A DNA stretch of 64,000 bases from the human T2T-CHM13v2.0 reference genome, Homo sapiens. Numbering within the stretch: position 1 is the stretch's first letter; the number at the start of each line of letters is the position of its first letter. Made by a program: the position numbers and the translations under genes. Under the pieces are notes generated by a model. It was not told the origin of the DNA and did not search any database. It saw nothing but the letters and a program-made list of their open reading frames with translations. Positions 4,551-62,773 of the stretch are shown piece after piece. Location: assembly GCF_009914755.1 (NCBI RefSeq), contig NC_060934.1. One strand, written 5' to 3'.

Positions 4551-7207
4551 CCACTTACTTTAAAATGCATTTTTTCCCTTCAGGGGAAAATTTAGCAGCT
4601 GTTATGATTTGCTGCTTTTTGTAAGAATTTTTTTTCAACTTCTAATGCATTAGACTTACCATAAGCTTCCTGCCAAGGTGAGAGCTTGCATTTAGTGAGT
4701 GATGAGCCTTACTTTATTTAATTATTAACTACAGTGATGGCTAGGCTGAGGGAAGGAAGTAGAGAATGTTAGGGTAATAGAAAAGAATTCAGAGTTCAGA
4801 TGTCCTGACATTTGCATTTTATAAAATTTCTATTCATGCTTCGGGGAGAAATAACTTTAAAATACTAGTGAGAGTAAGCAGCCCTTCCAAAAATTCAGTA
4901 TGTATTTTAAAGTTATTTTTCCTAGCTCTGTAGTGATACTTAGGTTTGAATAATTTATGACTCTTTTCTAAAAGTCAAAATTCACTTGACAAGGGCCAAT
5001 TCGATTTTTCTGAAATATTTTATATGAAATTAAAAGTCTTGTAGATACTAAAAACTTTGGAGAGTATCGGAAGAGAGAATGCTGGTAATGGCTCGCACTT
5101 TCTTCAGCGCCAGTTAGAGAAGGGTTTGGAATGTTCTCTCCTGTTCTGCAGGTGTGCTCCACATCCCCAGCCACTCAGGTCCCCAGAATGCGACAGGACC
5201 TGGAGGGCAGCGAGCTCGTCATCCTTGGTGTTTGAATGCCATCTATCTGTCCCAACCTGGTAGGCCACCTTCCTCCTGGGAAAACTGGAAAACCAAAGAA
5301 TTGCTTCTGATCAGATCCCTGGGAAGATGTTCACCAGGATGTAAAACTTGTCTAAAGAGGTGGGGGGTTCAGGCTGGCACTGTGGAGGCCGTGTTCATGC
5401 ATTCATCCCAGAAGCGGCTCCCCTGAGAGCAGGCTTGGGGTGTGGAGACTAGACCAGCATGGGGATGATCACGGCCCCTCCTGTCCTGCAAACCCCTGTC
5501 CTGCGACTTCTCCTCTTCTTCCTGGGACTGCACTTTCTAGGAGGAGGACATGGCATCCAGGATGCAGGAACAGCTGGTCAGGTGCTTGTCTTGGAGACAG
5601 GCTGGTGCCAAGGTGCAGTTGTAGGTTCTCTCGCTGGCTGGCATTCTGGGTGGGTGCCAGCCTGGCCCATGGGTACAAATTGGACTCTCTGGGCTGAGGA
5701 AGATGAAGGTGAAATCCTGCTTAGCTCCCAGGCCACTTTCGTGTTTAGACTGCCCTGAGCTGCCTGCTATTTTTGTGGCAGCTGTGGGCATTGCTAATAA
5801 ACACAGACTTGTACACCTGTGGGGTTAAAAGTAAGTTGACATAGCTTATGCATCAGTTTGGGCCCACGGGTCAGGAGCAGCCCTCAGTTTTCTCCATGAG
5901 TCAGGTGAGGAGAGAGTCCAAGGGTGAGGAGTAAATTCATTCCAATGGGAGGAGGAGTCAGCGTTCCCTCCAGGAAGCCACCAGGGCTCTCCTTCCTCCC
6001 CTCCATGAAAGAAGGAAGGGAAGGATCCAGAGGACAGAGTGGGGAGAAGGGAGGCAGGTGACATGGGAGGGACAGGAGGTGGGACAAAGAGAAGCAGGAC
6101 TTACTGGACCAAAGCCTTCTGATATCTCTTGGCATAGTCTGGGAGCTCAGCTCTGGGGACCGGGTGGCACCCAGGGCTGCAGGTCACCGTATCTGCAGTT
6201 CCCAAGTATCCGCTCCCTCCTCCTTGGAAGTTGGCTTCTTAGACACAAGGGAAGCACCTCAGAGACCCTCCTCCTATGAAATTGAGCCCTTGCCCTTGTG
6301 TCCTTGCGTGGCCTCAGAGCAAGGAGAGCAGCTCTTCCCACTGCACACAAGGGGAGGTGGGTGCCGCCACTTGCATTGGCCACCATCGTCCTAGTCACGT
6401 AGCAGTTTCCCTGAGTGTTGTTTAAAACAAAAGCCAACTTTTAGCCTGGAAGGCGGTGGAGAAGCACTGCTCTCTGACCATACTGGATGAAATCTCTTCT
6501 TAAAATAGTCTTCTAAGGGCCTACTGAAAATGAACAATTATAACAGGAATAAAGTGTGAAAAACGGCCCATTTTATTTTCTGGGTGCAAGTGGACTTCTT
6601 TTTTGTTGCTTTCTCTTAAACAGCTGCTTAATTGTGTTGGCGATCTTGCTTGGCTGCATTGGAGGATAAAAAACACACCAGCGTTTGCTTAAATCCAGAC
6701 TCCTACGCTGATTATTCTCATTTCTGATTTCAATGCAGCACGTCTTTTATTTGAACAGCAGCACCACGTTCTGTTCTTAGCTGAGGGCAGCACATAGCAG
6801 GTGATGGAATAACCCTGCCCGCCATGGTAGGAACAGAGGCACAGGAACTTGTAGCAATTCAAATGGCCGAGCTCTCTCGAACCTCCAAGTTTTACATGTG
6901 TACCCGGAATAACTATGGGTGTTTGTACAAGAACAAACATCAGGACTGGGGTATAATTTTCCCAAAGTAGTCACTCAAACTACCGTGGGTCAGAGATAGG
7001 AGAACAGGAAGCTCTCGTGGATGTCAACAAAATAAGGGAAGTTAAATGTATGCCGAATGCAAGTGGGTGTGCCAATGATGCGTCCTTGAAATCATCTCTC
7101 CTTGTGACCTGTTCCTTCTCTCTACCCCAGAGACAATGTGCCCAGATCATGGTGAATTTTAGATTCTTCCTGAAGGCGGGCTCCTAGGTTGTGGGGAGTT
7201 GGCTCTG

Positions 7208-7279
7208 CTGGTGGGGGAGGCCGGGGCTTGGCTGGTCAGGGAGGCCAGGACTTAGTTGGTGGGGGAGGCCGGGGCTCGG
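7208..7279. repeat. 24-bp G-rich tandem repeat, 3 copies
   Basis: ctggtgggggaggccggggcttgg / ctggtcagggaggccaggacttag / ttggtgggggaggccggggctcgg. Confidence 0.8.
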
Positions 7280-7732
7280 CTTGTCTCCTTGCTGGGTTCC
7301 CTGCGGCTGCAGGCTTCCCCCAGGAGGCAGTAATATATCACCACGCTATTGTCACAGGAGCTCGGGCAGCTGAAAAGTGGCCAAGGGACTCGGCCATCTG
7401 TATTTTCTATGGAAACATAATAGAATTCATTTTCCAATTGTTCATTGAGGTAAAAATGTTGAACTCAGTCTCCATGTATGACACTTCCAGGGCAATTGGA
7501 AACGGGGACGTTCGGGATGGCTGTGGGGGTTTCCTTGCTAATGCCATTTTGCACACTCACTGGTCTTACCCCCTCCTTGGTACCTGAGGCATTTCAGAGA
7601 TGTGCGAACCTGGAAGATGAGGAGCAGGTCTCTCCTGCACTGAAACGGGTTCCTGCTGGCACAGTGCGTCGCTCCTCTGCCCACAGGTTTATATTCAAGG
7701 CTGAAGAAGAGATAGCTGCCCAGCCTCAGGAG

Positions 7733-8213
7733 TGTTAGAAAGGAAAATGATTTGGGGCTGCTTTTCATGAAAAGGAAAGCCTTACCCAGGACTTCCCTAC
7801 CGCCACTATCTGCCTAAGTAATTTCTTCTTAACTCCTGTATCATTGCTCTCATCCATTACCCAAGAAGGAGGAAAAAGAGTCATGGGATGAGGGGGAGCC
7901 CACCAGGAAGTCCGCTGCTGGTGGTCGTCCATGGGAAGACAGCCCACAGGCATCTGCCACGTGACCGTGGCGGCCTTGCTGGCTGAGGAGGCACAGCGTG
8001 CCAGATGTTGTACAGGCTTTGCCTTTGCTCCCTGTCCTTCCTGCTGGCTCCCCCTCATCCTGTGACTCTTTTTCCTCCTTCTTGGGTAATGGATGAGAGC
8101 AATGATACAGGAGTTAAGAAGAAATTACTTAGGCAGATAGTGAGGGTAGGGAAGTCCTGGGTAAGGCTTTCCTTTTCATGAAAAGCAGCCCCAAATCATT
8201 TTCCTTTCTAACA
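7733..8213. repeat. Long inverted repeat: 168-bp arms (7733-7900 and 8046-8213) with a 145-bp spacer
   Basis: Base-by-base comparison gives 164/168 identity. The differences are two dinucleotides (left arm 7802-7803 and 7884-7885). Confidence 0.97.
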
Positions 8214-8975
8214 AAGAGCAGCGTGTAAAATCAAGCGGCAGCATAGACGCGGGCAGTTGTGCCAATCATGTTCAAAATGGCGGCTCCATCTTCCCTTCTG
8301 CCAGCCACCTGTACAGTAAGGAGCAGGCAAGATGGCGCTGGTCAAAGTAAGGAGCAGGCAAGATGGCGCTGGTCAAAGTAAGGAGCAGGCAAGATGGCGC
8401 TGGTCAAAGTAAGGAGCAGGCAAGATGGCGCTGGTCAAAGTAAGGAGCAGGCAAGATGGCGCTGGTCAAAGTAAGGAGCAGGCAAGATGGCGCTGGTCAA
8501 AGTAAGGAGCAGGCAAGATGGCGCTGGTCAAAGTAAGGAGCAGGCAAGATGGCGCTGGTCAAAGTAAGGAGCAGGCAAGATGGCGCTGGTCAAAGTAAGG
8601 AGCAGGCAAGATGGCGCTGGTCAAAGTAAGGAGCAGGCAAGATGGCGCTGGTCAAGGGGAAAGTTCATTTGTGTAATAAGATTAGGGTGGGGCGGGCAGC
8701 CTTCCCTGAGCGCTATGTAAACGTCAAGCCTGATCAAACCAATCTGTGAGCCCCACGTAAATCAGACACCACCTCCTCAAGCTGGACTAGAAAATCCAGC
8801 GCATCCACCTGCTGGCATTTTCCTCTGGGAAGTTCCCTCTCTCGCTCTCTCGAGAGAGCTGTTTTCCTTTCTCTTTTTCTTGCTCCTAAACTCCTCGTGT
8901 GTGTCCGTGTCCTAAATTTTCCTGGCACGAGAGGATGAACCCCAGGTGTTTACCCCAGACAAGGTAGCCATTTGG
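8103..8975 (+). mobile_element. ERV1 solo LTR, MER50-like, with an internal tandem expansion
   Basis: Starts tgatacaggagttaagaagaaattacttaggcagatag. Has a CCAAT box and a degenerate TATA, and ends taccccagacaaggtagccatttgg. Degenerate 4-bp TSD gcaa/gtaa. Confidence 0.85.
8315..8655. repeat. 31-bp minisatellite, 11 perfect copies, each with a YY1-type motif
   Basis: (agtaaggagcaggcaagatggcgctggtcaa)x11 = 341 bp, with no variant copy. Confidence 0.98.
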
Positions 8976-9340
8976 GTAACAGTCTGTCAAGTTTACCCCA
9001 AGGCCATGCAGTTTTGTTGTTGGCGGGATTTGCCTGTTTCTTTTGTAAAAATGTTGTTACAACTAAACCCAGATGAGTAAAGTGTGCCCATGGAACCCCT
9101 CAGTGGCATTTCTATAATTTGGAGTTTTAGCACAGTTAGAAAAGGCTCGTTCATATTAAAGTCTTTATTGCTCCAGTTTGAGGCTACTCAGAATGCACTT
9201 CCTCTCCCCACGTTCTGGCTCTTCCTCTCGACAGGTGCATATGTTCAAGTCTCCTAACCACACGTTACCACCCACTTCTCCCCTTATCACTCTAGAATCC
9301 GCGGTTTTTCAAAAATGCTTAACCATTTCCCAGTAAACTG

Positions 9341-9595
9341 GCGTAGGGGCTAAGAGACACCACTCTAAGGTCAGGCTCAGGCTTTGCAGGCTCACCTGCC
9401 CCTTCACGGCTGTGGCCCTGGCCTCTGTCAGGCTTTGCTTTGATTGGCCTCTGTGCTTTCGATTTCTTTCCTGGGAACTGAAGTTCTAACAATGGCCCAA
9501 CTCAAAGGCCAATCATGAGGATTAAGTGAAACAGCACATGTAAGTACTTAGACCAATGTTGAGCACACAGCGAGAACTTCATAAATCATCGACGT
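9341..9595 (+). mobile_element. MIR SINE
   Basis: gcctctgtgctttcgatttc...atgaggattaagtgaaacagcacatgtaagtacttag...gcacacagcgag. Confidence 0.7.
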
Positions 9596-9694
9596 TGTTA
9601 GGCAGGTCCAAAGTCCCAGTGATACATATTCTCTATTGTGTTTGAAAGCTCAAAAAATTGGAGACAAACCAAACAACAATCAAATAACTACCAG

Positions 9695-12600
9695 GTTTCT
9701 ACACCTGTTAATTTATGCTAGTTTGGACCAGCCCTCCCACTGAGAACACATGAAAAAGCTGGACAAAGAACTTAAAAAATCTGTTGGAAAGTATTAGAGA
9801 GTTATCAAGATGTAGGAAAGGAGAGGAGCATATAGAGGAGCCTGTTATTTGGGGTAGGTTTCACCCTAGAGATGTTTGCAGTTTTTGAAAACGATGGCCC
9901 AGAGGCTGAGAAGCAAAGCAAGTTCTCTGCAGGCACAGAGGACTAGGAAGACAGAACTTGAAGTAAAATTTTGATAACTAAAGGATGCACTTCGTAATCT
10001 CTAGGAGAAGCATAAAAAGAGTAGTAAAAGCATGTGCAACTGTCAAGCTGATAGAGATAGCAAATGGAAGAATAAAAAAAATCTAAAAGATGGCAAGAAA
10101 AGAGATAAAGGAGCATAGAAGAGTTAGGCAAGATAGAAAGTAAATAATAAGATTGTATGTTAACTTTCAAATACACCAGCAACCCTCACGCTTTGGTTTG
10201 GGACCTTAAAGATTTATAATTCAAGAAAAAAAAAAGAAATGGATAAACAAGAAATGGAGGCACCAATACAGACTAGCTTAAAATCACCTCAATCCGTGAC
10301 TGGATTAAGGTGATCAGGGATGACTTCTTCCCCTTGTTCCCCTAGTTTAGCTAACTAAAAGAAAAGATGAATACTTTCTGAAGGAAGATACACCACTCAA
10401 ATCCTCAAATTATCCCCACTGTTTTTCACATGAAAGTTTTCCATTTCATTAAAAGAAAACAGCTAGACATATGAGGAAACAAAGCATAACCAAAAATCAA
10501 AAGAACATAAGCAAACAAAACAGATCTACACAGTATCCAGAAGATAGGATTATTGACATGAAACTGTGGAGTTCTCTGACAAAAACTTTGTAATAGCAAT
10601 GCCTAATATATTTATGTAAATAAAAAGATCGAAGAAATTGACAAAGAATCGGAAACTATAAAAAACCCAAAATGCTAATTCTGTAACTGAAAAGTACAAT
10701 AATAGAAATTAACCATTCAGTAGCTGAGTTTAATGACAGATCAGATAAGTCAAAGGGAGAATCGGTAACCCTGAAGACATGTCAGAAGAACATATCCAAA
10801 CTTCAGTCACTGAGAGATAAATGGATTAAAAAATGAAAAACAGAAAAGTAATATTAGGATGAGTGATGTGAATTTTGTAAGAAGCAATGAATGAGTGCTG
10901 ATAATTCCTCATAGCCCAGCTGAGCACATAAAATTGGAGCTCAGAAGGCAAAAAGTGAGAAGAATAAAAGACATTAAATGACAAATTCAAGGAGTACTAT
11001 AAAACCTGGGGTAAATATTGAGAAAACTGCAGTAAGCAAATTATAGCAAAACAGCTGAAATCAAAGACAAAGAGAAATTCTTAAAAGGAGACAAAACAAC
11101 AAACAAACAAAAACAACCCACTTCTTACGTTCAGAGAAACAAGATTGATAGCTGACATTTTAACGAAAATGGTGAAACACAGGCAGCAACTAAAAAGATA
11201 GGTTTAAAGTGTTGAAGGAAAGTAACTACTTATCTAGAATTCTGCATGCTGTAACAATATTTTTCAAAAATGAAGACAAAGATTTTGAGACAAAGAAAAA
11301 TATCAGCACAGACAACAGTGATAGAAACAAACTATTATTATGCAGGCAGAATAATAATAATCCCAGATGGAAGTTGAGTGATACAGAGAGGAATTAAGAA
11401 CAAAGAGAATGGTAACTATGTGGGTATATTTAAAATAATATAATAATAATGTTTAATGGGTTTTAACAAGTATAGAGTCTTAAAATACATAATAGTATAC
11501 AAGTTGGAGGGTGGTTAATGGAGCTAATGTGTCCTAATTAGAAGGAAATAAATACACATATTAGGAAAAAGGCTAATAATTAATCATTAAGAAATCTACC
11601 TACAGAAGCAAATTAAACCCTAAGAAAGTAGAAGGATGGAAATAATTATAAGAGTATAAATTAAAGTAATAGAAAATAAATATACAATACAGAGATTTAA
11701 TGAAGCCAAAGTGGAATCTCTGAAAAGGGGCAAAGCCCTGCCTGGTACCACAAGAATTCAGGACTGCAAAGGGGTTAGTGCCACAGACCCTGCAGCCACC
11801 ACACGGATCACAGGTGACCAATCCCTGGGAGAAATTTCACAGAGATAAATTTGAACATTGGGATAAAATTATTAAATTCCTGGAAACAAATAGAAAAACA
11901 GACCCATGGGAAAATAAAAACTTTGAGTATTCTTTGCAGAATTAAATATGCCGAATTTATATTTTTATATACACACACACACCACACACACACACACGAT
12001 ACACTTCATTTTCAAAAGGTTTCAACAGCAGATCCTATCAAACTCTGATGGAAAAAATTATTCCAATCCACATGAGAGAACAAAAAAAGAAGCTACAGAT
12101 TCCAATTTCTTTCATAAGAGTCAAATAATGTGGAAGTGGAAATTTGACAAAGACAATACAAGAAAATAAAAATTGAGTTCGATGTCACTCACAAATGTAG
12201 ACTTTAAAATCCTCAGCAAAACATTAGCTAACCAAGTCTAGCAATGAATAAAATGATCATACATGATGTCCAACTCACATTTATTTTGGAATACAAGTTT
12301 GATTTAACATTTGAAAGTCAATCAGTGTAAGTCACCAAGGGACGAGAAGAAAAAAGACAACTCACGACATTTCAGTAGATGAGGGAAAAAGCCTTTGATA
12401 AAAACTCTTAGAAAATAAGGAAGTAAATATATAGAATTTAACCTGATGGTCACACAGAACGTCATATCAAATGGTGAAATATTCAAATATTTTCCCATAA
12501 AACTGGAAGCAAACAAGAATGTCCTTTTTTAAAAATACCATTTCCATTTAACATTATGTTAGAATTCATAGCCAGTGCAATAGCGAAAAATTAAAAAATA

Positions 12601-22006: not shown

Positions 22007-22460
22007 ATACCCATTAGTTATTTTTCCTGATGATCTTCTTCCTCCTTCCACATTTCACCCTCCAAAAGGCCCCACTGTGTGTTTTTCCCCAATATGGGTC
22101 CGTGTGTTCTCATCATTTAGCTCCCACTTATAAGTGAGAACATGTGGTATTTGGTTTTCTGTTCCTGTGTTAGTTTGCTGAGGATAATGGCCTCCAGCTC
22201 CAACCATGTCCCTGCAAAAGACATGGTCTCATTCTTTTTATGGCTTCATAGTATTCCATGGTGTATATATACCACATTTTCTTAATCCAGTCTATCACTG
22301 AGGGGCATTTAGGTTGAATTCATGTCTTTGCTATTGTGAATAGTGCTGCAATGAACATATGCATGCATTTGTCTTTATGATAGAATGATTTATATTCCTT
22401 TGGTTATATACCCAGTAATGGGATTGCTGGGTTGAATGGTGTTTTTGTCTTTAGGTCTTT

Positions 22461-26047: not shown

Positions 26048-27617
26048 ATTCGATGCTATCCCCAACAAGCTACCACTGACTTTCTTCACAGAATTGGAAA
26101 AAACTACTTTAAACTTCATATGGAAACAAAAAAGAGCCTGCATAGCCAAGACAATCCTGGGCAAGAAGAACAAAGCTGGAGGCATCACACTACCTGACTT
26201 CAAACTATACTACAATGCTTCAGTAACCAAAACATCATGGTACTGGTACCAAAACAGATATATAGACCAAAGGAACAGAACGCAGACCTCAGAAATAACA
26301 CCACACAGCTACAACCATCTGATCTGTGAGAAACCTGACACACACAAGTAAGAGGGAAAAGATTCCCTATTTAAAAAATGGTGTTGGGAAAACTGGCTAG
26401 CCATATGCAGAAAACTGAAACTGAACCCCTTCCTTACACCTGTTATGAAAATCAACTAAAGATGGATCAAAGACTTACACATAAGACCTAGGACCATAAA
26501 AATCCTAGAAGAAAACCTGGGCAATACCATTCAGGACATAGACATGGGCAAAGATTTCATATCTAAAACACCAAAAGCAATGGCTACAAAAGCCAAAGTT
26601 GACAAATGGGATCTAATTAAACCAAAGAGTTTCTGCACAGCAAAAGAAACTATCATCAGAGTGTACAGGCAACCTACAGAATGGGATAAAATTTTTGCAA
26701 CCTATCCATCTGACAAAGGGCTAATATCCAGAATCTACAAAGAACTTAAATAAATTTACAGGAAAAAAAAAACAATCCCATCAAAAAATGGGCAAAGGAT
26801 ATGAACAGACACTTGTCAAAAGAAGACATTTATGCAGCCAACAGACAGAAGAAAAAATGCTCATCATCACTGGTCATCAGAGAAATGCAAATCAAAACCA
26901 CAATGAGATACCATCTCACGCCAGTTAGAATGGCGATCATTAAAAAGTCAAGAAACAACAGATGCTGGAGAGGTTGTGGAAAAATACGAATGCTTTTACA
27001 CTGTTCATGGGAGTGTAAATTAGTTCAACCATTGTGGAAGACAGTGTGGTGATTCCTCAAGGATCTAGAACTGGAAATACCATTTGACCCAGCAATCCCA
27101 TTACTGGGTATATACCCAAAGGATTATAAATCATTCCATGATAAAGACACATTCACATGCATGTTTATTGTGGCACTATTCACAATAGCAAAGACTTGGA
27201 ACCAACCCACATGTCCATCAGTGATAGACTGGATTAAGAAAATGTGGCACATATACACCATGGAATACTATACAGCCATAAAAAGGATGAGTTCATGTCC
27301 TTTGCAGGGACATGGATGAAGCTGGAAATCATCATTCTCAGCAAACTATCACAAGGTCAGAAAACCAAACACCACACGTTCTCACTCATAAGTGGGAGTT
27401 GAACAATAAGAACACATGGACACAGGGAGGGGAACATCACACACTGGGGCCTGTTGGGAGGTGGGGGTCTAGGGGAGGGATAACATTAGGAGAAATACCT
27501 AATGTAGGTGACAGTTTTATGGGTGCAGCAAACCACCAGGGCACACGTATACCTATGTCACAAACCTGTACGTTCTGCACATGTAACCCAGAACTTAAAG
27601 TACAATTAAAAAAAAAA
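26048..27617 (+). mobile_element. 5'-truncated L1PA7/8-type LINE (ORF2 C-terminus, 3' UTR, poly-A)
   Basis: Broken ORF2 peptides ([34 protein letters not shown]). G-rich 3' UTR and poly-A. TSD aatttctag at 26039-26047 and 27618-27626. Confidence 0.95.
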
Positions 27618-47084: not shown

Positions 47085-47835
47085 TCAGCTGTTCAAACAG
47101 ATAAACCACAAACAAAGCCTCAGTGGCCTCACCCAATATAAGCTGACTTCTCACTCGTGTCCCTGCGCCATGTGAGTTGGGGGCCGGGGGAGGGCTCTGC
47201 TCCATGCAATCATTTAGTGCCTCAGGGGTCGTTCATCTTAGAGGTCATCTGGCATACTTCACTGGTGAGTGGGGCTGTTGACTTCTCACTCGTGTCCCTG
47301 CTCCACGTAAGTTGGGGGGCGGGGGAGGGCTCTGCTCCACGCAGTCATTTAGTGCCTCAGGGGTCATTCATCTTAGAGGTCATCTGGCATACTTCACTGG
47401 TGAGTGGGGCTGTTGACTTCTCACTCGTGTCCCTGCTCCAAGTAAGTTGGGGGGCGGGGGAGGGCTCTGCTCCACACAGTCATTTAGTGCCTCAGGGGTC
47501 GTTCATCTTAGAGGTCATCTGGCATACTTCACTGGTGAGTGGGGCTGTTGACTTCTCACTCGTGTCACTGCTCCATGTGAGTTGGGGGACAGGGGAGGGC
47601 TCTGCTCCACGCAGTCATTTAGTGCCTCAGGGGTCGTTCATCTTAGAGGTCATCTGGCATACTTCACTGGCGAGTGGGGCTGGAAGAGGGCGAGGGACCT
47701 CTCGGAGGGAAATGTGGGTAAAACCTGGGATTGGAGGCTCACTGTGGTCCACATTTGACAGGCCAGAGCACAGCTGCACACCCCGCCTCGTTCCAGGCAG
47801 GGTCTCAAGGATGGAGAGAGCACAGGTGTGGTGGC
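47085..47835 (-). mobile_element. Old MLT1J/K-like LTR remnant hosting the 135-bp repeat
   Basis: aaacaaagcctcagtggcctcacccaa...ttctcactc...agggctctgctcca..gcagtcatt resembles the recalled MLT1J/K consensus. Confidence 0.45.
47144..47682. repeat. 135-bp VNTR, 4 near-identical copies
   Basis: Units start at 47144, 47279, 47414 and 47549. Confidence 0.97.
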
Positions 47836-50380
47836 TCATGTTTTCTTCTAGAATTTAGGCTCATTGTTGGCAAAGAGAAGAGCTCTCAGGGCAAGCAGTC
47901 CTGGAATGAAGAAGACAGAGTCCATGGCTGCTTCCACCTGGCTGCACATCCTGCCAGCCTGAGCAGAGCCGGAGGAAGGAGGAGAAAGACCAAGCACGTC
48001 CCGGAAGAGCAATCTTTTTACGCTATTAATGGAATGTTCTGTACCATGTTCTTTTTCTGTATTTGTTTTGTTATTTGAAATTTTCTTTAGTAATTTGCCA
48101 GGCTTGGTATAGTTCTCTGTTTCACTGTTTTTCCTCTGTGCATAGATTACATGTTTTCAGTAGCATCTGCTCTGAATTTTAATTACGATGCTTTGCTCAA
48201 AGGGGCCCTCACAAAGCAGCCCAAGTCCTCAGTGGTCCGGAGCCACATTTATGGCACAGACAGAGGGCTGTGGAGTGTCAGGAGACCTGGAACCAGACAA
48301 AGGAAACATGAGCCAGCAACGGTCCCCTTGCTCACCCGCCTCTTTTTAAGATGCCTCTGCAGCAAGGGACTGCCATGCATAAAATTACTTTTTGGTGTTT
48401 GTTTTTTTTTGCCAATAATTGTCCTTTGGTTCTTCAAGGCAACATCACAAAGCCTCAGTAGCTTTTAAAGTAGCAATTGTGGGATTTGTAGCTGGGCTAA
48501 ATGGAAAATGCAATTCTGTGTTCAGTTATTTCAAATTGCAAAAATAAGCTTATGGGATGTCATAAAAATTGGGCTGTTATTACTTATTAGCCTACGAAGG
48601 CTTTCCAGAATCCACTGGAATTGACATGCACGGATTCCCGGAGGTTTGCTGTGCTGTCCTCAGTGGAGGTTGTGAAGCCTCGAGGGTCCTCTTGGGTCAA
48701 ATGAGTCAGGCCGGTCCTGAGTGTGCCCCAGGGCCTAAGGGCGGGCCAGTCCTCTGGCTGGACAGCATGGGCAGAGCCTTCGGCTGTCATGGAGCACATT
48801 CCTGAAACCCAGAGTGTATCTCTGCTCCTTTGTCATCTGAAATTAGTACCATGGTTACATTTTATTTCAGAAGCAAAACTATGGATTGTAAACTATAATT
48901 ACGTGGTAATTATTTGGCTGCTGCTGTAAGTGAGTGGGGTGCTGAGAGAAAGTGGAAAACAGCTCCTTGGAGCCTTTGGGGCCAGGCCAACGCTGAGCAT
49001 CTGGGCTTCCAGGAGGGAGGCCTCGGCTCTGCCAGCAGATGCCCTTTGGGCGTGTCCTGGAGGGGCAGGAGCAGGCCACGCAGCTCTTGGGAGCCTGGGC
49101 GCTGTGTCTGCTAGGTGTGTGGCCACCTCCTGGCCCTATGGCCTGCAGAAGGCATTGGTGTTTGCCCCCAGGGGCTGGGATGGTACCTGAGTCATTGGTA
49201 TAGCCCTGGCCCAGAGCAGGTGTTAGGGAATATTTGTCAAACTGCATTTGAGTTCTGCAGAGCCCTTCTTAGCCAGGTCCTCTGACTGCCCCCTGCAGCT
49301 CTCCACTGTGGTCTCTCCACCCCTCTGGGCTTGGATCCCCGCCTGTCCATAACCACCATCCCCTACCACCTTGCCTAGGACATTCCCAAGAATGCTCTGG
49401 AATTTGGGGGATGCCACGTTATTTCCTTCTTGGCCTTTGCAGCTCTAAATGTGCCTGAGATTTCAGGTGTGCATTTGATTAGGAAGGCCTGAGCCTCTGC
49501 CCGCCGAGTGTCCTGCCTCCTCTTCGGAAATTCTTCCTCTGGGGATCTTGCCTCATTACCTGAGGACTCCACTCTCTCTTTGGCCCAGAGGAGGGTGCTG
49601 CTCTCTCTGCAAATGCCAGGCACCAGGGGAGGCTTGCGAGTGACAACCCCCTTGCTTCACAGCGAGCGCTTTATAGGCTCAGTAAGTGGGTTTCGACATG
49701 TATCTCCCCAGCGCTGCCTCCTTAAGATATGAGGAAATGAGGCAGGGGGGATTTCGGTTGTTTTATGCCTGGCAGCCGGGGGATGCTTGAGGAATTCATT
49801 GGTCTTTGGACACCGCGGCAGGGAACAAGGCTGGCTCTCAGGCTTGCCGGGCTGCAACCTCCTGGAGGGGGTGTGATTTATCCTGTGGGCGGCATCCTCC
49901 TGGTAGCTCTGAGTGGGGTCCCTCCCTGGAGTCCTTTCATGTGGGGTGGGCAAGAGCAGGTGGTGTTCGCACTGGCATGGGGCCATCTTGGACTAGGTGA
50001 GCAACCTGTGAGGAGTGCAGGCACATCAATGCGACAGACCAGGCTGCTGGGCACTGACCTGCCCTGTGGTGGTCCAGCCATCAGCCTCCTCTGTGCTCAG
50101 GTGCAGGGCCCACCCCTACCTGCTGGACGCCGGCTCATGCAGCTGGGGCTTTTCCAGAAGGAGTCCAAGCTCAGAGGATAGCGGCTGCTGGGAGTGGATG
50201 CCCCGTGAGAATATATTCTTCTCCAGGTCATTTTCTTCTCCATGGCCCTGACACGAGTCCTCAGGACTCACCCCACAAGAGTCCCGGATGGACACTGGCA
50301 CAGGGCACAGGGTAGCGGCTTCTGGAAAAAGAGTGGCTCTTTGTTCGGATAGCCCGGCTCCCTTAACAGTGATAGTCACA

Positions 50381-51495
50381 CTGGGGTCCCTGTTCTTGGG
50401 GTGCATGTGCTCCTGGGGTCTCCATTCTCAGGGTCTGTGTGCTCCTGAGGTCCCCGTTCTTGGGGTGCATGTGCCCCTGAGGCCTGCATTCTTGGAGTGC
50501 GTGTTCTTCTGGGGTCCCCATTCTCAGAGTGCGTGTCCTCCTGGGGTCCCTGTTCTTGGGGTGCATGTCCTCCTTAGGTCCCCATTCTCAGGGTGCACAT
50601 CTTCCTGGGGTCCCCATTCTCAGAGCGTATGTCCTCCTGGGGCCCCCATTCTCAGGGCGTGTATGCTCCTAGGGTCTCCATTTTCAGGGTGTGTGTGCTC
50701 CTGGGGTCCCTATTCTCAGGGTGCATGTCCTCCTGGGACCCCATTCTCAGGGTGTGCATCTTCCTGGGGTCCCCATTCTCGGGATACCTGTCCTCCTGGG
50801 GTCCCCATTCTTATGGTGCATGTGCTCTTGGGGTCCCTGTTCTTGGGGTTTGTGTGCTCCTAGGGTCACCATTCTTGGGGTCTGTGTCCTGAGGTTCCTG
50901 TTCTTGGGGTGCATGTGCTCCTGGGGTCTCATTCTTGGAGTGTGTGTCCTCCTGGGGCCCCCATTCTCAGGGCGTGTATGCTCCTAGGGTCTCCATTTTC
51001 AGGGTGTGTGTGCTCCTGGGGTCCCCATTCTCAGGGTGCATGTCCTCCTGGGGCCCCCATTCTCAGGATGCATGTCCTCCTGGGATCCCCCTTCTTGGGG
51101 TTCCTGTGCTCCTGGGGTCCCTGTTCTCGGAGTCTGTGAGTTTCTGGGGACCATGTGTTTGTGAGGTTCCTGTTCTCAGGATCTGTGAGTTTCTGGGGTC
51201 TGTGTGCTCCTGGGGTCCCTGTTCTCAGGGTCTGTGTGCTGCTGGGGCCCCTGTGCTCCTGAGGTTGCTGTTCTCAAGGTCTGTGTGTTTCTGGGGTCTA
51301 TATGCTGCTGGGGTCTCTGTGCCCCTGGAGTTCCTGTTCTTAGCATCTGTATGCTCCTGGGGTCCTTGTTCTGGAGGCCTGTGTTCTTGGGGTCCCTGTT
51401 TTCGGGGTCTGTGTGTTTCTGGGGTCTGTGTGCTCCTGGAGTCTATGGGCTGCTGATTTTCATTTGCTTCTGGGGGGTCATGCACTCCTGGGGTC
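50381..51495. repeat. Degenerate 32-bp minisatellite, roughly 35 unit lengths
   Basis: ctggggtccc(ca/tg)ttct(ca/tg)gggtgcatgt(g/c)ctc units that decay into half-units at the 3' end. Confidence 0.92.
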
Positions 51496-61033: not shown

Positions 61034-61550
61034 GGACGGTGAGCCGAAATGGTACCTGTGAGTAGACTTACACACCACCGTGAGCAGGGAGTCAAAATGC
61101 ACACCTGGCTCCGGGGTCCAGAAATGCTCCTCACTTCTTATTTCAAGTGAACAAACTTCACAGGAGTGTGGCTGTCAACTGCTGATCCGTGAGCCCAACT
61201 GACTGGACTCATTGGGACTGGGGTGTCAGATGAGCTGCTGGCAGAGCTGCTTGTAAAAGCCTCTAAGACGGGGTGAGTGTTGAAGTTGCCCGTCCATCAT
61301 CCATCCATCGAACTTTCATCAAGTGCTTTTATGCCCACAGTTTGTGCCTCGTGAGTGCAAGACGCTACGGAATTAGACGCAGGGGTGATAACGAGTTAGT
61401 AATCAGTTAATTCTCCTAAAAATTCTACTTGCACTTGAAGGTAGAAATCATGACCTCTTTCTCCTTTTAGGACTAAAATCACACACTTTAAGCATATGAC
61501 CTGACCACCTACTCTCCGTCCCTTTACTCATGGTGGGTTCCCTGCAGATG

Positions 61551-62773
61551 CACTAGTGTTTCTTCCTGGTGTCCTGGGAGTCTCACTAGCATTTCCTCCT
61601 GGTGTCCTGGGATTCTCACTAGCATTTCTTCCTGGTGTCCTGGGATTCTCACTAGTGTTTCTTCCTGTTGTCCTGGGATTCTCACTAGCATTTCTTCCTG
61701 GTGTCCTGGGATTCTCACTAGCATTTCTTCCTGGTGTCCTGGGATTCTCACTAGCATTTCTTCCTGGTCTCCTGGGATTCTCACTAGTGTTTCTTCCTGG
61801 TGTCCTGGGATTCTCACTAGTGTTTCTTCCTGGTGTCCTGGGATTCTCACTAGCATTTCTTCCTGGTGTCCTGGGATTCTCACTAATGTTTCTTCCTGGT
61901 GTCCTGGGATTCTCACTAGTGTTTCTTCCTGGTGTCCTGGGATTCTCACTAGTGTTTCTTCCTGGTGTCCTGGGATTCTCACTAATGTTTCTTCCTGGTG
62001 TCCTGGGATTCTCACTAGTGTTTCTTCCTGGTCTCCTGGGATTCTCACTAGTGTTTCTTCCTGGTGTCCTGGGATTCTCACTAGCATTTCTTCCTGGTGT
62101 CCTGGGATTCTCACTAGCGTTTCTTCCTGGTGTCCTGGGATTCTCACTAGTGTTTCTTCCTGGTCTCCTGGGATTCTCACTAGTGTTTCTTCCTGGTCTC
62201 CTGGGATTCCCACTAGTGTTTCTTCCTGGTCTCCTGGGATTCTCACTAGTGTTTCTTCCTGGTCTCCTGGGATTCTCACTAGTGTTTCTTCCTGGTCTCC
62301 TGGGATTCTCACTAGTGTTTCTTCCTGGTCTCCTGGGATTCTCACTAGTGTTTCTTCCTGTTGTCCTGGGATTCTCACTAGTGTTTCTTCCTGTTGTCCT
62401 GGGATTCTCACTAGTGTTTCTTCCTGGTCTCCTGGGATTCTCACTAGTGTTTCTTCCTGGTCTCCTGGGATTCTCACTAGTGTTTCTTCCTGGTCTCCTG
62501 GGATTCTCACTAGTGTTTCTTCCTGTTGTCCTGGGATTCTCACTAGTGTTTCTTCCTGGTCTCCTGGGATTCCCACTAGTGTTTCTTCCTGTTGTCCTGG
62601 GATTCTCACTAGTGTTTCTTCCTGGTCTCCTGGGATTCCCACTAGTGTTTCTTCCTGGTGTCCTGGGATTCTCACTAGTGTTTCTTCCTGGTCTCCTGGG
62701 ATTCTCACTAGTGTTTCTTCCTGTTGTCCTGGGATTCTCACTAGTGTTTCTTCCTGGTGTCCTGGAATTCTCA
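61551..62773. repeat. 33-bp VNTR, 37 copies
   Basis: (ctcactagtgtttcttcctggtgtcctgggatt)n with a few recurring single-site variants. Confidence 0.98.

What the first reader, a model, noticed from the sequence alone, without database searches (positions are those of the whole stretch)
7733..8213. Near-perfect 168-bp inverted duplication spanning an LTR insertion junction
Seen: arms 7733-7900 and 8046-8213 match at 164/168 positions around a 145-bp spacer. The copied segment holds 111 bp of the LTR 5' end plus 57 bp of non-LTR flank, so it is a local copy made after the LTR inserted, not a second insertion. One difference is TG versus CA, as expected if an ancestral CpG decayed separately in each arm. 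In plus-strand RNA those two positions become G-U pairs, leaving a 168-bp stem with a single 2x2 loop. Weak similarity (caggaag) continues into the spacer and may mark a seed quasi-palindrome. Established: long, closely spaced, highly identical inverted repeats are unstable and rare in mammalian genomes. Inference: it arose by fold-back template switching or is maintained by arm-to-arm conversion, and the spacer could be a small polymorphic inversion.
Basis: partly seen in the sequence, partly recalled or inferred. Interest (0 to 1): 0.75.

Follow-up and report, generated by a model that had tools for sequence, protein, structure and literature searches.

The report
Inverted local copy of LTR junction
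A 168-base stretch spanning the edge of an ancient retroviral LTR was later copied backwards 145 bases upstream, giving a real but probably neutral hairpin-forming repeat of a known mutational kind.

Summary
Arms 7733-7900 and 8046-8213 pair at 164 of 168 positions around a 145-bp spacer. Twenty-eight other genomic copies fix the LTR 5' end at 8103. Each arm therefore holds 111 bp of LTR plus 57 bp of single-copy host flank.

The LTR (8103-8975, + strand) is a solo LTR of the LTR9 group (HUERS-P3, class I/ERV1). It is named through the MIR4428 host LTR, called LTR9A1 in print, and through a tRNA-Pro-like primer site in two proviral relatives. The subfamily is unresolved. I estimate the insertion at roughly 25-50 My.

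The copy is much younger. Had it dated from insertion, about 19 arm differences would be expected; 4 are seen. A single fold-back or template-switch event (type 1-4-3-2) fits best. A short quasi-palindrome (8 of 9) sits at the inner junction (null 0.7%) and the outer junction has no microhomology.

The four differences form two adjacent pairs. At least one pair is a tandem change in the copied arm, so arm divergence is a weak clock (0 to about 15 My).

No transcription, conversion or spacer inversion could be tested here. This is a new member of a known kind, of modest interest.

The parts
7733..7900 (-). Left arm: the inverted copy. 7733-7843 is the reverse complement of LTR positions 1-111. 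7844-7900 is the reverse complement of the 57-bp host flank, including the flank-side target-site copy.
7901..8045 (.). Spacer: 145 bp, single-copy, GC 62%, 6 CpG. Its two ends (about 7902-7910 and 8037-8045) form a short quasi-palindrome, 8 of 9 after a 1-nt shift.
8046..8213 (+). Right arm: the source. 8046-8102 is host flank and 8103-8213 is LTR positions 1-111.
8103..8975 (+). Solo LTR of the LTR9 group (HUERS-P3, ERV1), 873 bp including the expanded 31-bp array. Other copies are 576-620 bp, and the LTR9A1 example is 729 bp. The 5' end is sharp. The 3' end is placed by alignment to other copies, and its last bases depart from their shared ending.
8099..8102 (.). Left target-site copy (4 bp). 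It matches 3 of 4 bases with 8976-8979.
8976..8979 (.). Right target-site copy (4 bp).
8315..8655 (+). 31-bp unit x 11.0, 100% identical, inside the LTR. This is a locus-specific expansion and is not part of the inverted repeat.

Best explanation
A class I endogenous retrovirus of the LTR9 / HUERS-P3 group integrated here on the + strand in an anthropoid ancestor and later collapsed to a solo LTR (8103-8975). Much later, one DNA replication or repair accident copied 168 bp backwards. The copied piece was 57 bp of host flank plus the first 111 bp of the LTR, and it landed 145 bp upstream. The most likely route starts with a free 3' end at the left edge of what is now the spacer. That end folded back on a short quasi-palindrome at the two spacer ends and primed synthesis on the complementary strand through the flank into the LTR. 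After 168 nt it was rejoined to the left side without microhomology. In the four-point template-switch notation this is a 1-4-3-2 event with points at about 7732, 7901, 8046 and 8213. The result is a neutral, hairpin-capable inverted repeat with no shown function. Shown here: the structure, the LTR boundary, the post-insertion origin, and that the copy is far younger than the insertion (or has been homogenised). Inferred: the fold-back route, the age and the neutrality.
For: The LTR start at 8103 is fixed by other copies. The flank and spacer are single-copy, so the left arm can only come from this locus, and no other place in the genome holds flank plus LTR together. Both arms share 4 rare states in the 111 LTR columns, each shared with a different single copy or with none. 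This LTR's own rare-state divergence is 28 of 490 judged columns, or 5.7%. Two arms of that age would differ at about 19 of 168 columns, but 4 are seen (Poisson P about 4e-5, my arithmetic). The inner junction holds an 8-of-9 quasi-palindrome with an empirical null of 0.7%. The outer junction shows no extension of pairing. In print, the four-point model's type 1-4-3-2 creates an inverted repeat and makes up 31% of human-chimp events (PMC5453318, passages). The longest human pattern reported is 318 bp (bioRxiv 10.1101/2021.11.26.470150, passages). Fold-back priming at breaks is described in PMC11724301 and PMC10622511 (abstract starts in search listings only). Family naming: Rfam mir-4428 hits the LTR. 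The only hit over the cut-off in the genome is the annotated MIR4428. Its host LTR aligns along the window's LTR at 72-86% and is named LTR9A1, ERV1, in PMC10379226 Table 2 (passage). LTR9 subfamilies are paired with HUERS-P3/P3B in PMC5753468 (table passage) and PMC4724089 (passages). The primer site after the LTR in 2 of 2 relatives with internal sequence scores best against tRNA-Pro among 49 tRNA families.
Against: No outgroup or second human genome was available, so the ancestral empty state, the spacer's ancestral orientation and the age are all inferred. The quasi-palindrome needs a 1-nt shift and has one mismatch, so it is suggestive rather than decisive. At 168 nt the copy is far longer than typical short template switches (tens of bp) and longer than fold-back insertions at yeast breaks (mostly 5-34 bp, PMC11724301 abstract start). 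The lack of microhomology at the outer junction is not what a pure replication-slippage return would predict. The 4 shared 'private' states could have been carried by the integrating element rather than acquired afterwards. The subfamily is not resolved. The named LTR9A1 example is only 72-86% identical, while unnamed copies reach 86-90% in the 5' part.
Confidence: 0.7

Rival explanations
1. The duplication is old, close to the LTR's own age, and the arms are kept alike by arm-to-arm gene conversion or by repeated template switching between them.
For: Arms at 97.6% identity sit inside an LTR whose own rare-state divergence is 5.7%. Template switching between short inverted repeats is said to homogenise arms and invert spacers (PMC8604942, abstract start in the listing).
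Against: It needs an added process where a single late event suffices. Arms of 168 bp are short for recombination (recalled, not from a call). Nothing in one genome separates this from a late copy. The one polarised difference is a tandem change in the copy that was not erased.
Confidence: 0.12
2. A small inversion with one staggered break produced the structure. The segment spacer-plus-168-bp was flipped and the staggered 168 bp was filled in on both sides. On this reading the spacer is now inverted relative to its ancestral orientation.
For: The final arrangement (copy, spacer, source) is exactly what this model yields, and it needs no microhomology at the outer junction. Four-point types with an inverted spacer make up 23% of events in PMC5453318 (passage).
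Against: It does not predict the quasi-palindrome at the two spacer ends. The spacer and the left flank have no other copies in the genome that could show the ancestral orientation, so this could not be tested.
Confidence: 0.1
3. The hairpin is a working RNA element, a long double-stranded RNA or small-RNA precursor kept by selection. It might act on transcripts carrying LTR9 ends.
For: A 168-bp stem forms on either strand. Template switches are reported to create RNA hairpins and new miRNAs (PMC8794818 and PMC10710096, abstract starts in the listing). An antisense mir-4428-like hairpin lies 64 bp to the right.
Against: There is no annotated gene in the window, and the nearest gene ends 35.6 kb away. 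No annotated element overlaps the repeat. No Rfam match falls in the arms. The LTR's own sense transcription would start downstream of the right arm and run away from it (inference from LTR layout). No expression data were available.
Confidence: 0.03
4. The left arm is an assembly artefact, for example from a fold-back chimeric read.
For: None from the sequence.
Against: An artefactual fold-back would be a perfect palindrome around a point. Here the arms differ at 4 columns, a 145-bp unique spacer lies between them, and the left arm joins unique sequence at 7732.
Confidence: 0.02
5. The left arm is a second, truncated insertion of the same LTR family in the opposite orientation.
For: 7733-7843 matches other LTR copies at 80-94%.
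Against: The 57 bp next to it repeat the host flank of the first LTR at 55 of 57, and that flank exists nowhere else in the genome. The LTR part shares 4 rare states with the neighbouring LTR.
Confidence: 0.01

Closest known systems
Short-range template-switch mutations, four-point model type 1-4-3-2 (Loytynoja and Goldman 2017, PMC5453318)
   Same: A nearby stretch is re-copied in reverse complement. This creates an inverted repeat around an uninverted spacer, can create hairpins, and may start from an existing near-palindrome.
   Different: The copy here is 168 nt. Events in that work are mostly tens of bases, and the longest pattern in a later human survey is 318 bp (bioRxiv 10.1101/2021.11.26.470150). 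Here the ancestral allele is inferred, not observed.
Fold-back (snap-back) templated inverted insertions at double-strand breaks (PMC11724301 and PMC4912351, abstract starts only)
   Same: A 3' end folds on a short inverted match, copies its own strand, and is then joined. This fits the quasi-palindrome at the inner junction and the blunt outer junction.
   Different: Reported insertions are mostly 5-34 bp in yeast. 168 nt would be an unusually long tract.
Large fold-back inverted duplications of human chromosomes (PMC3907307) and fold-back inversions in yeast and cancers (PMC10622511), search listings only
   Same: They show inverted duplication with a short single-copy spacer at the turn, primed at short inverted matches.
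   Different: Those are kilobase- to megabase-scale, go through dicentric chromosomes and come with terminal deletions. This one is a 168-bp insertion with both flanks intact.
LTR9-group solo LTRs of HUERS-P3 / HUERS-P3B (ERV1) (PMC5753468, PMC4724089, PMC3597737)
   Same: There is end-to-end homology to an LTR named LTR9A1 in print, 4-bp target-site copies, and a tRNA-Pro-like primer site in proviral relatives. The group is old.
   Different: This copy carries an 11-unit 31-bp array seen in 0 of 27 other copies and an inverted copy of its own 5' junction. Its subfamily is not resolved.
Closely spaced inverted Alu pairs and fragile palindromes (PMC10164571 passages; PMC3215922 listing)
   Same: They have inverted arms of a few hundred bp that can fold in single-stranded DNA or RNA.
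   Different: Those arise from two insertions and are usually 75-90% alike. In the 264-kb control all other pairs were below 93%. Fragility falls steeply with spacer length, and here the spacer is 145 bp.

Membership tests
LTR9-group LTR (HUERS-P3 / P3B, ERV1) | Homology along the LTR to a copy named in print | tested here: met
   The host LTR of the annotated MIR4428 is named ERV1 LTR9A1 in PMC10379226 Table 2. It aligns to 8103-8336, 8625-8796 and 8837-8962 at 72-75% and to the left arm at 86%.
LTR9-group LTR (HUERS-P3 / P3B, ERV1) | Sharp LTR ends (TG...CA) with a 4-bp target-site duplication | tested here: inconclusive
   The 5' TG at 8103 is sharp. The last bases of this copy depart from the ending shared by 13 other copies. 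The target-site copies match 3 of 4. Among 13 other copies with both ends found, 8 have a perfect 4-bp duplication and 5 match 3 of 4. The other 14 of 27 lacked a usable end.
LTR9-group LTR (HUERS-P3 / P3B, ERV1) | Primer-binding site for tRNA-Pro in proviral members | tested here: met
   This was tested on relatives only, because this copy is a solo LTR. In 2 of 2 copies with internal sequence after the LTR (L004, L012), the three tRNA-Pro families score 10 and 12. The next best is 8 and the median is 5, among 49 tRNA families.
LTR9-group LTR (HUERS-P3 / P3B, ERV1) | Class I (gamma-like) pol in the internal region | not tested
   Left out by choice. The LTR, print and the primer site sufficed, and I listed no frames over proviral relatives.
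LTR9-group LTR (HUERS-P3 / P3B, ERV1) | Subfamily (LTR9, 9A1, 9B, 9C, 9D) | not testable with these tools
   No repeat library is on hand, and the repeat table in /data carries no names and does not mask this LTR.
Template-switch mutation, type 1-4-3-2 | A stretch equals the reverse complement of nearby sequence on the same chromosome | tested here: met
   164 of 168 positions, with the source 145 bp away.
Template-switch mutation, type 1-4-3-2 | An ancestral allele without the copy, with the spacer in today's orientation | not testable with these tools
   No other primate or human genome is available. The flank and spacer are single-copy.
Template-switch mutation, type 1-4-3-2 | Short range and short copied tract | tested here: inconclusive
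   All four points lie within 481 bp, but the 168-nt tract is in the upper tail. The longest reported pattern is 318 bp, and the longest in complex sequence from variant data is 90 bp (bioRxiv 10.1101/2021.11.26.470150, passages).
Fold-back priming at a break | A short inverted match at the turning point | tested here: inconclusive
   8 of 9 after a 1-nt shift. The same statistic is reached at 0.7% of about 200,000 random placements in the window.
Fragile palindrome (near-zero spacer, AT-rich type) | Arms abutting or nearly so, AT-rich | tested here: not met
   The spacer is 145 bp and the arms are 44-45% GC.
Palindrome maintained by arm-to-arm conversion | Arms stay alike within species while diverging between species | not testable with these tools
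   This needs orthologues.
Hairpin RNA / miRNA gene | Transcription and processing of the stem | not testable with these tools
   No expression data are available. There is no Rfam match in the arms and no annotated gene in the window.

The most novel reading that the evidence does not exclude
The inverted copy is very young, possibly human-specific or still polymorphic, because its only differences are two tandem-base scars left by error-prone copying. On this reading it belongs to one episode of local replication instability that also blew a single 31-bp LTR unit up to 11 perfect copies about 100 bp away. The locus would then be a rare natural record of a long (168-nt) fold-back synthesis tract with its error signature. 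Its 168-bp stem, which carries LTR9 sequence, could feed small RNAs if an antisense transcript crosses it.
Probability: 0.12. Interest if true: 0.55.

Novelty: new member of a known kind. Interest (0 to 1): 0.3.

Why it matters
The locus is a clean, datable example of a long local template switch. Because the copy spans an LTR insertion junction, the order of events (insertion first, copy later) is certain, and the LTR family supplies an outgroup for part of the copy. That outgroup shows a tandem substitution on the copied arm. This bears on how error-prone such synthesis is, and on how far arm divergence can be trusted as a clock for small palindromes. It also shows that repeat annotation would list a 111-bp antisense 'LTR fragment' here that is not an insertion. 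Beyond that it is an ordinary neutral rearrangement in a gene desert.

Tried and rejected
Second LTR insertion: rejected.

Provirus: rejected. There is no second LTR in the 64-kb window, and no similarity of 8976-9600 to the internal sequence present in relatives.

Older repeat under the spacer or left flank, which could have given the spacer's ancestral orientation: none was found. Both are single-copy at this tool's sensitivity, and ancient diverged repeats would be missed.

Bacterial-type promoter and terminator scan: not meaningful for human DNA, so not used.

The repeat table in /data does not mask 7733-8975 and carries no family names, so it could not name the LTR.

Rarity control: I planned 100 random 10-kb pieces and obtained only 20, so the control is 264 kb and weak.

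Print searches for this locus or for LTR9 with inverted duplications: none of the 10 top-listed papers holds the word LTR9. One search matched 4,163 papers and one search matched 200, of which only 10 each were listed. This is therefore no proof of absence.

Recalled and not from any call: the minimal length for efficient mammalian recombination, and the link between Pol zeta and tandem substitutions. For the latter I saw only the abstract starts of PMC4158752 and PMC3039667 in the listing.

Full report
**1. Observation**

The repeat finder gives arms 7733-7900 and 8046-8213, 168 nt, 98% complementary, 145 nt apart. It is the second-longest inverted pair in the whole window and by far the most identical; the others are 75-91%.

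A script finds 4 mismatched columns of 168, in two adjacent pairs: 7802-7803 against 8143-8144, and 7884-7885 against 8061-8062. At the second pair the + strand reads TG in both arms, which is TG versus CA in arm register. In + strand RNA these two positions become G-U pairs and only the first pair opens a 2x2 loop. The fold shows exactly that (-384.6 kcal/mol, z = -34.4, 0 of 100 shuffles as good). The - strand RNA folds at -381.9 kcal/mol and single-stranded DNA at -235.6 kcal/mol.

Pairing continues weakly inward. After a 1-nt shift, 8 of the next 9 positions pair, and BLAST extends the self-match to 7844-7910 against 8037-8102 at 94%. Outward there is no further pairing.

**2. What the arms are made of**

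A search of the window's own genome with 7600-9100 returned 123 matches, with 40 of 1,542 first-look candidates scored.

Re-alignment against 28 saved records (24 distinct loci plus 4 second records of the same copies) gave these bounds:
- Homology to the right side begins at 8100-8105 in most copies, and at 8109-8119 in 5 truncated ones.
- It ends at 8961-8981 where the 3' part is complete.
- Homology to the left arm runs from 7732-7743 to 7827-7846.

Most copies begin with the same LTR start at the position aligned to 8103. The 20 bases before it differ between loci, except in four copies preceded by a shared purine-rich internal sequence.

So 8103 is the LTR's first base.

The flank and spacer (7901-8102) and the left unique sequence (7000-7732) match nothing else in the genome. 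No other locus holds flank and LTR together. The left arm can therefore only have been copied from this locus after the LTR was in place.

**3. The element**

There is no second LTR in the window. Nothing after about 8975 resembles the internal sequence present in relatives. This is a solo LTR on the + strand, 8103-8975.

Other copies end in a shared short ending and are 576-620 bp long. Of 27 distinct other copies, 13 had both ends found; 8 of those have a perfect 4-bp target-site duplication and 5 match 3 of 4. In the window the last bases of the LTR depart from that ending, and the 4-bp copies (8099-8102 and 8976-8979) match 3 of 4.

The extra length comes from a 31-bp unit repeated 11.0 times with 100% identity at 8315-8655. 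Other copies carry about one unit, and 0 of 27 have a period-31 array.

**4. Family**

An Rfam scan of 6500-10000 found a mir-4428-like hairpin on the - strand at 8277-8345 (54.5 bits, cut-off 90). In the whole genome the only hit above the cut-off is chr1:236882525-236882597, which is the annotated MIR4428.

Print places that miRNA as follows:
- PMC10379226 Table 2 (passage read) puts it in an ERV1 LTR named LTR9A1.
- PMC10136691 (table passage) lists it as LTR/ERV1.
- PMC4233971 (passage) says mir-4428 derives from LTRs.

The LTR around MIR4428 aligns along the window's LTR at 72-75% and to the left arm at 86%. Unnamed copies reach 86-90% in the 5' part and 74-83% in the 3' part. The window's LTR therefore belongs to the LTR9 group but probably to a subfamily other than LTR9A1. 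No repeat library was available to decide.

The Repbase review (PMC5753468, table passage) pairs LTR9A1/9B/9C/9D with HUERS-P3 and LTR9 with HUERS-P3B. PMC4724089 (passages) lists HUERSP3/LTR9 among class I groups.

As an independent check, the 30 bases after the LTR in the 2 of 2 relatives that keep internal sequence there (L004, L012) score best against all three tRNA-Pro families among 49 host tRNA families. The scores are 10 and 12, with the next best at 8 and the median at 5. That fits the 'P' in the name. I did not look at any retroviral gene.

**5. Ages**

*The LTR.* The window's base is rare (held by 20% or fewer of the other copies, which largely agree among themselves) in 9 of 208 judged columns of the 5' part and 19 of 282 of the 3' part. 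That is 28 of 490, or 5.7%. The mean distance to other copies is 10% (5' part, 21 copies) and 19% (3' part, 19 copies).

PMC4724089 equates 0-1% LTR-LTR divergence with the last 2.5 My. On that scale these figures give roughly 25-50 My. The same paper calls HUERSP one of the oldest groups, with LTR divergence of 18-32% (passages). PMC3597737 (passages) describes an LTR9B/HUERS-P3b insertion shared by New World and Old World primates. I therefore place the insertion in an anthropoid ancestor. The uncertainty is wide, because my strict column rule undercounts.

*The copy.* If it dated from the insertion, the arms should differ at about 2 x 5.7% x 168 = 19 columns. Four are seen (Poisson P about 4e-5, my arithmetic). 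The copy is therefore much younger or has been homogenised. Taken at face value, 2.4% is about 6 My on the same scale.

**6. Why the clock is weak**

Four independent differences would fall into two adjacent pairs with P = 4.5e-4.

For the pair inside the LTR part, the family gives polarity. The right arm holds the state of 20 of 20 and 19 of 20 other copies, so the left, copied arm carries a tandem two-base change.

For the pair in the flank part there is no outgroup. It may instead be a second tandem change in the copy.

Multinucleotide changes are put at about 2% of human polymorphisms (PMC4158752, abstract start in the listing). It is therefore notable that the only non-CpG difference is tandem. 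If both pairs are scars of error-prone synthesis at birth, there is no post-copy divergence at all. The copy could then be anywhere from polymorphic to about 15 My old.

**7. Mechanism**

The layout is: left unique sequence, reverse copy, spacer, source. This is what the four-point template-switch model calls type 1-4-3-2. That type creates an inverted repeat and makes up 31% of human-chimp events (PMC5453318, passages).

The two spacer ends form a short quasi-palindrome just inside the arms. This is what a fold-back of a free 3' end needs in order to prime. The same statistic is reached at 0.7% of about 200,000 random placements in the window. That is suggestive only, and a 1-nt shift is needed. 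The outer junction shows no pairing or microhomology, which fits end joining better than an annealed return.

I therefore favour a break or stalled end at the left edge of the spacer, fold-back priming, about 168 nt of synthesis through the flank into the LTR, and a blunt rejoin.

The tract is long. Yeast fold-back insertions at breaks are mostly 5-34 bp (PMC11724301, abstract start). The longest human template-switch pattern reported is 318 bp, and the longest in complex sequence from variant data is 90 bp (bioRxiv 10.1101/2021.11.26.470150, passages).

A small inversion with one staggered break gives the same layout with the spacer flipped. Without an outgroup I cannot exclude it.

**8. Stability and function**

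Passages of PMC10164571 state that going from a 12-bp to a 100-bp spacer lowers inverted-repeat recombination 300-fold, and from 12 to 200 bp lowers rearrangement about 20-fold. They also state that such repeats still interact in long single-stranded DNA. With a 145-bp spacer this repeat should be only mildly hazardous.

Short inverted duplicates are very common: 4.3 million in human under loose criteria (PMC5398296, sections 6 and 12). Long, near-identical ones are not. In 264 kb scanned with one script, this is the only pair at or above 95% identity with arms of at least 60 nt within 3 kb. The next best is 117 nt at 92.3%.

Nothing points to a function:
- There is no gene in the window.
- The nearest gene, a lncRNA, ends 35.6 kb upstream.
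- No annotated element overlaps the repeat.
- No Rfam match falls in the arms.
- Sense transcription from the LTR would start downstream of the right arm and run away from it (inference from LTR layout).

**9. Verdict**

The finding is a real, well-described structure. Its origin as a post-insertion local inverted copy is secure. The fold-back or template-switch route is the best-supported mechanism. Conversion, spacer inversion and any RNA role remain untested.

It is a new member of a known kind of mutation. What makes it tidy is that the LTR junction gives the order of events and a partial outgroup.

Noticed in passing
window 8315-8655: A 31-bp unit is repeated 11.0 times with 100% identity inside the solo LTR, about 100 bp right of the right arm. 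Other copies of the family carry about one unit, and 0 of 27 have a period-31 array. It may be a young, possibly variable minisatellite. Any link to the neighbouring inverted copy is unknown.
   Followed up: partly
window 8277-8345, - strand: An Rfam mir-4428-like hairpin lies here, antisense to the LTR (54.5 bits, below the cut-off of 90). The true MIR4428 on chr1 lies in a related LTR. At least 59 further sub-threshold hits genome-wide show that the hairpin is a family feature.
   Followed up: yes
window 61419-62700, 50327-51248, 47144-47817: Three further minisatellite arrays (units of 33, 32 and 135 bp; 37 or more, 16 and 4 copies) lie in the same 64-kb window. The region is rich in tandem arrays.
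   Followed up: no
window 7207-7281: A GC-rich 24-bp unit is repeated 3.1 times at 74% match, about 450 bp left of the left arm.
   Followed up: no
window 22056-22444 and 27075-27463: This is the longest inverted pair in the window: 389 nt at 84%, 4.6 kb apart. It is probably two insertions of one interspersed repeat. I did not examine it.
   Followed up: no
L004 (chr16:4271130-4272373) and L012 (chr3:197426696-197427943): These relatives of the LTR keep a short internal stretch between two LTR pieces, with a tRNA-Pro-like primer site after the upstream LTR and a purine-rich tract before the downstream one. They are heavily shortened proviral remnants. I used only the primer site.
   Followed up: partly
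window 7901-8045: The single-copy spacer is GC-rich (62%) and keeps 6 CpG in 145 bp (observed/expected 0.43), while the arms keep 1 and 0.
   Followed up: no
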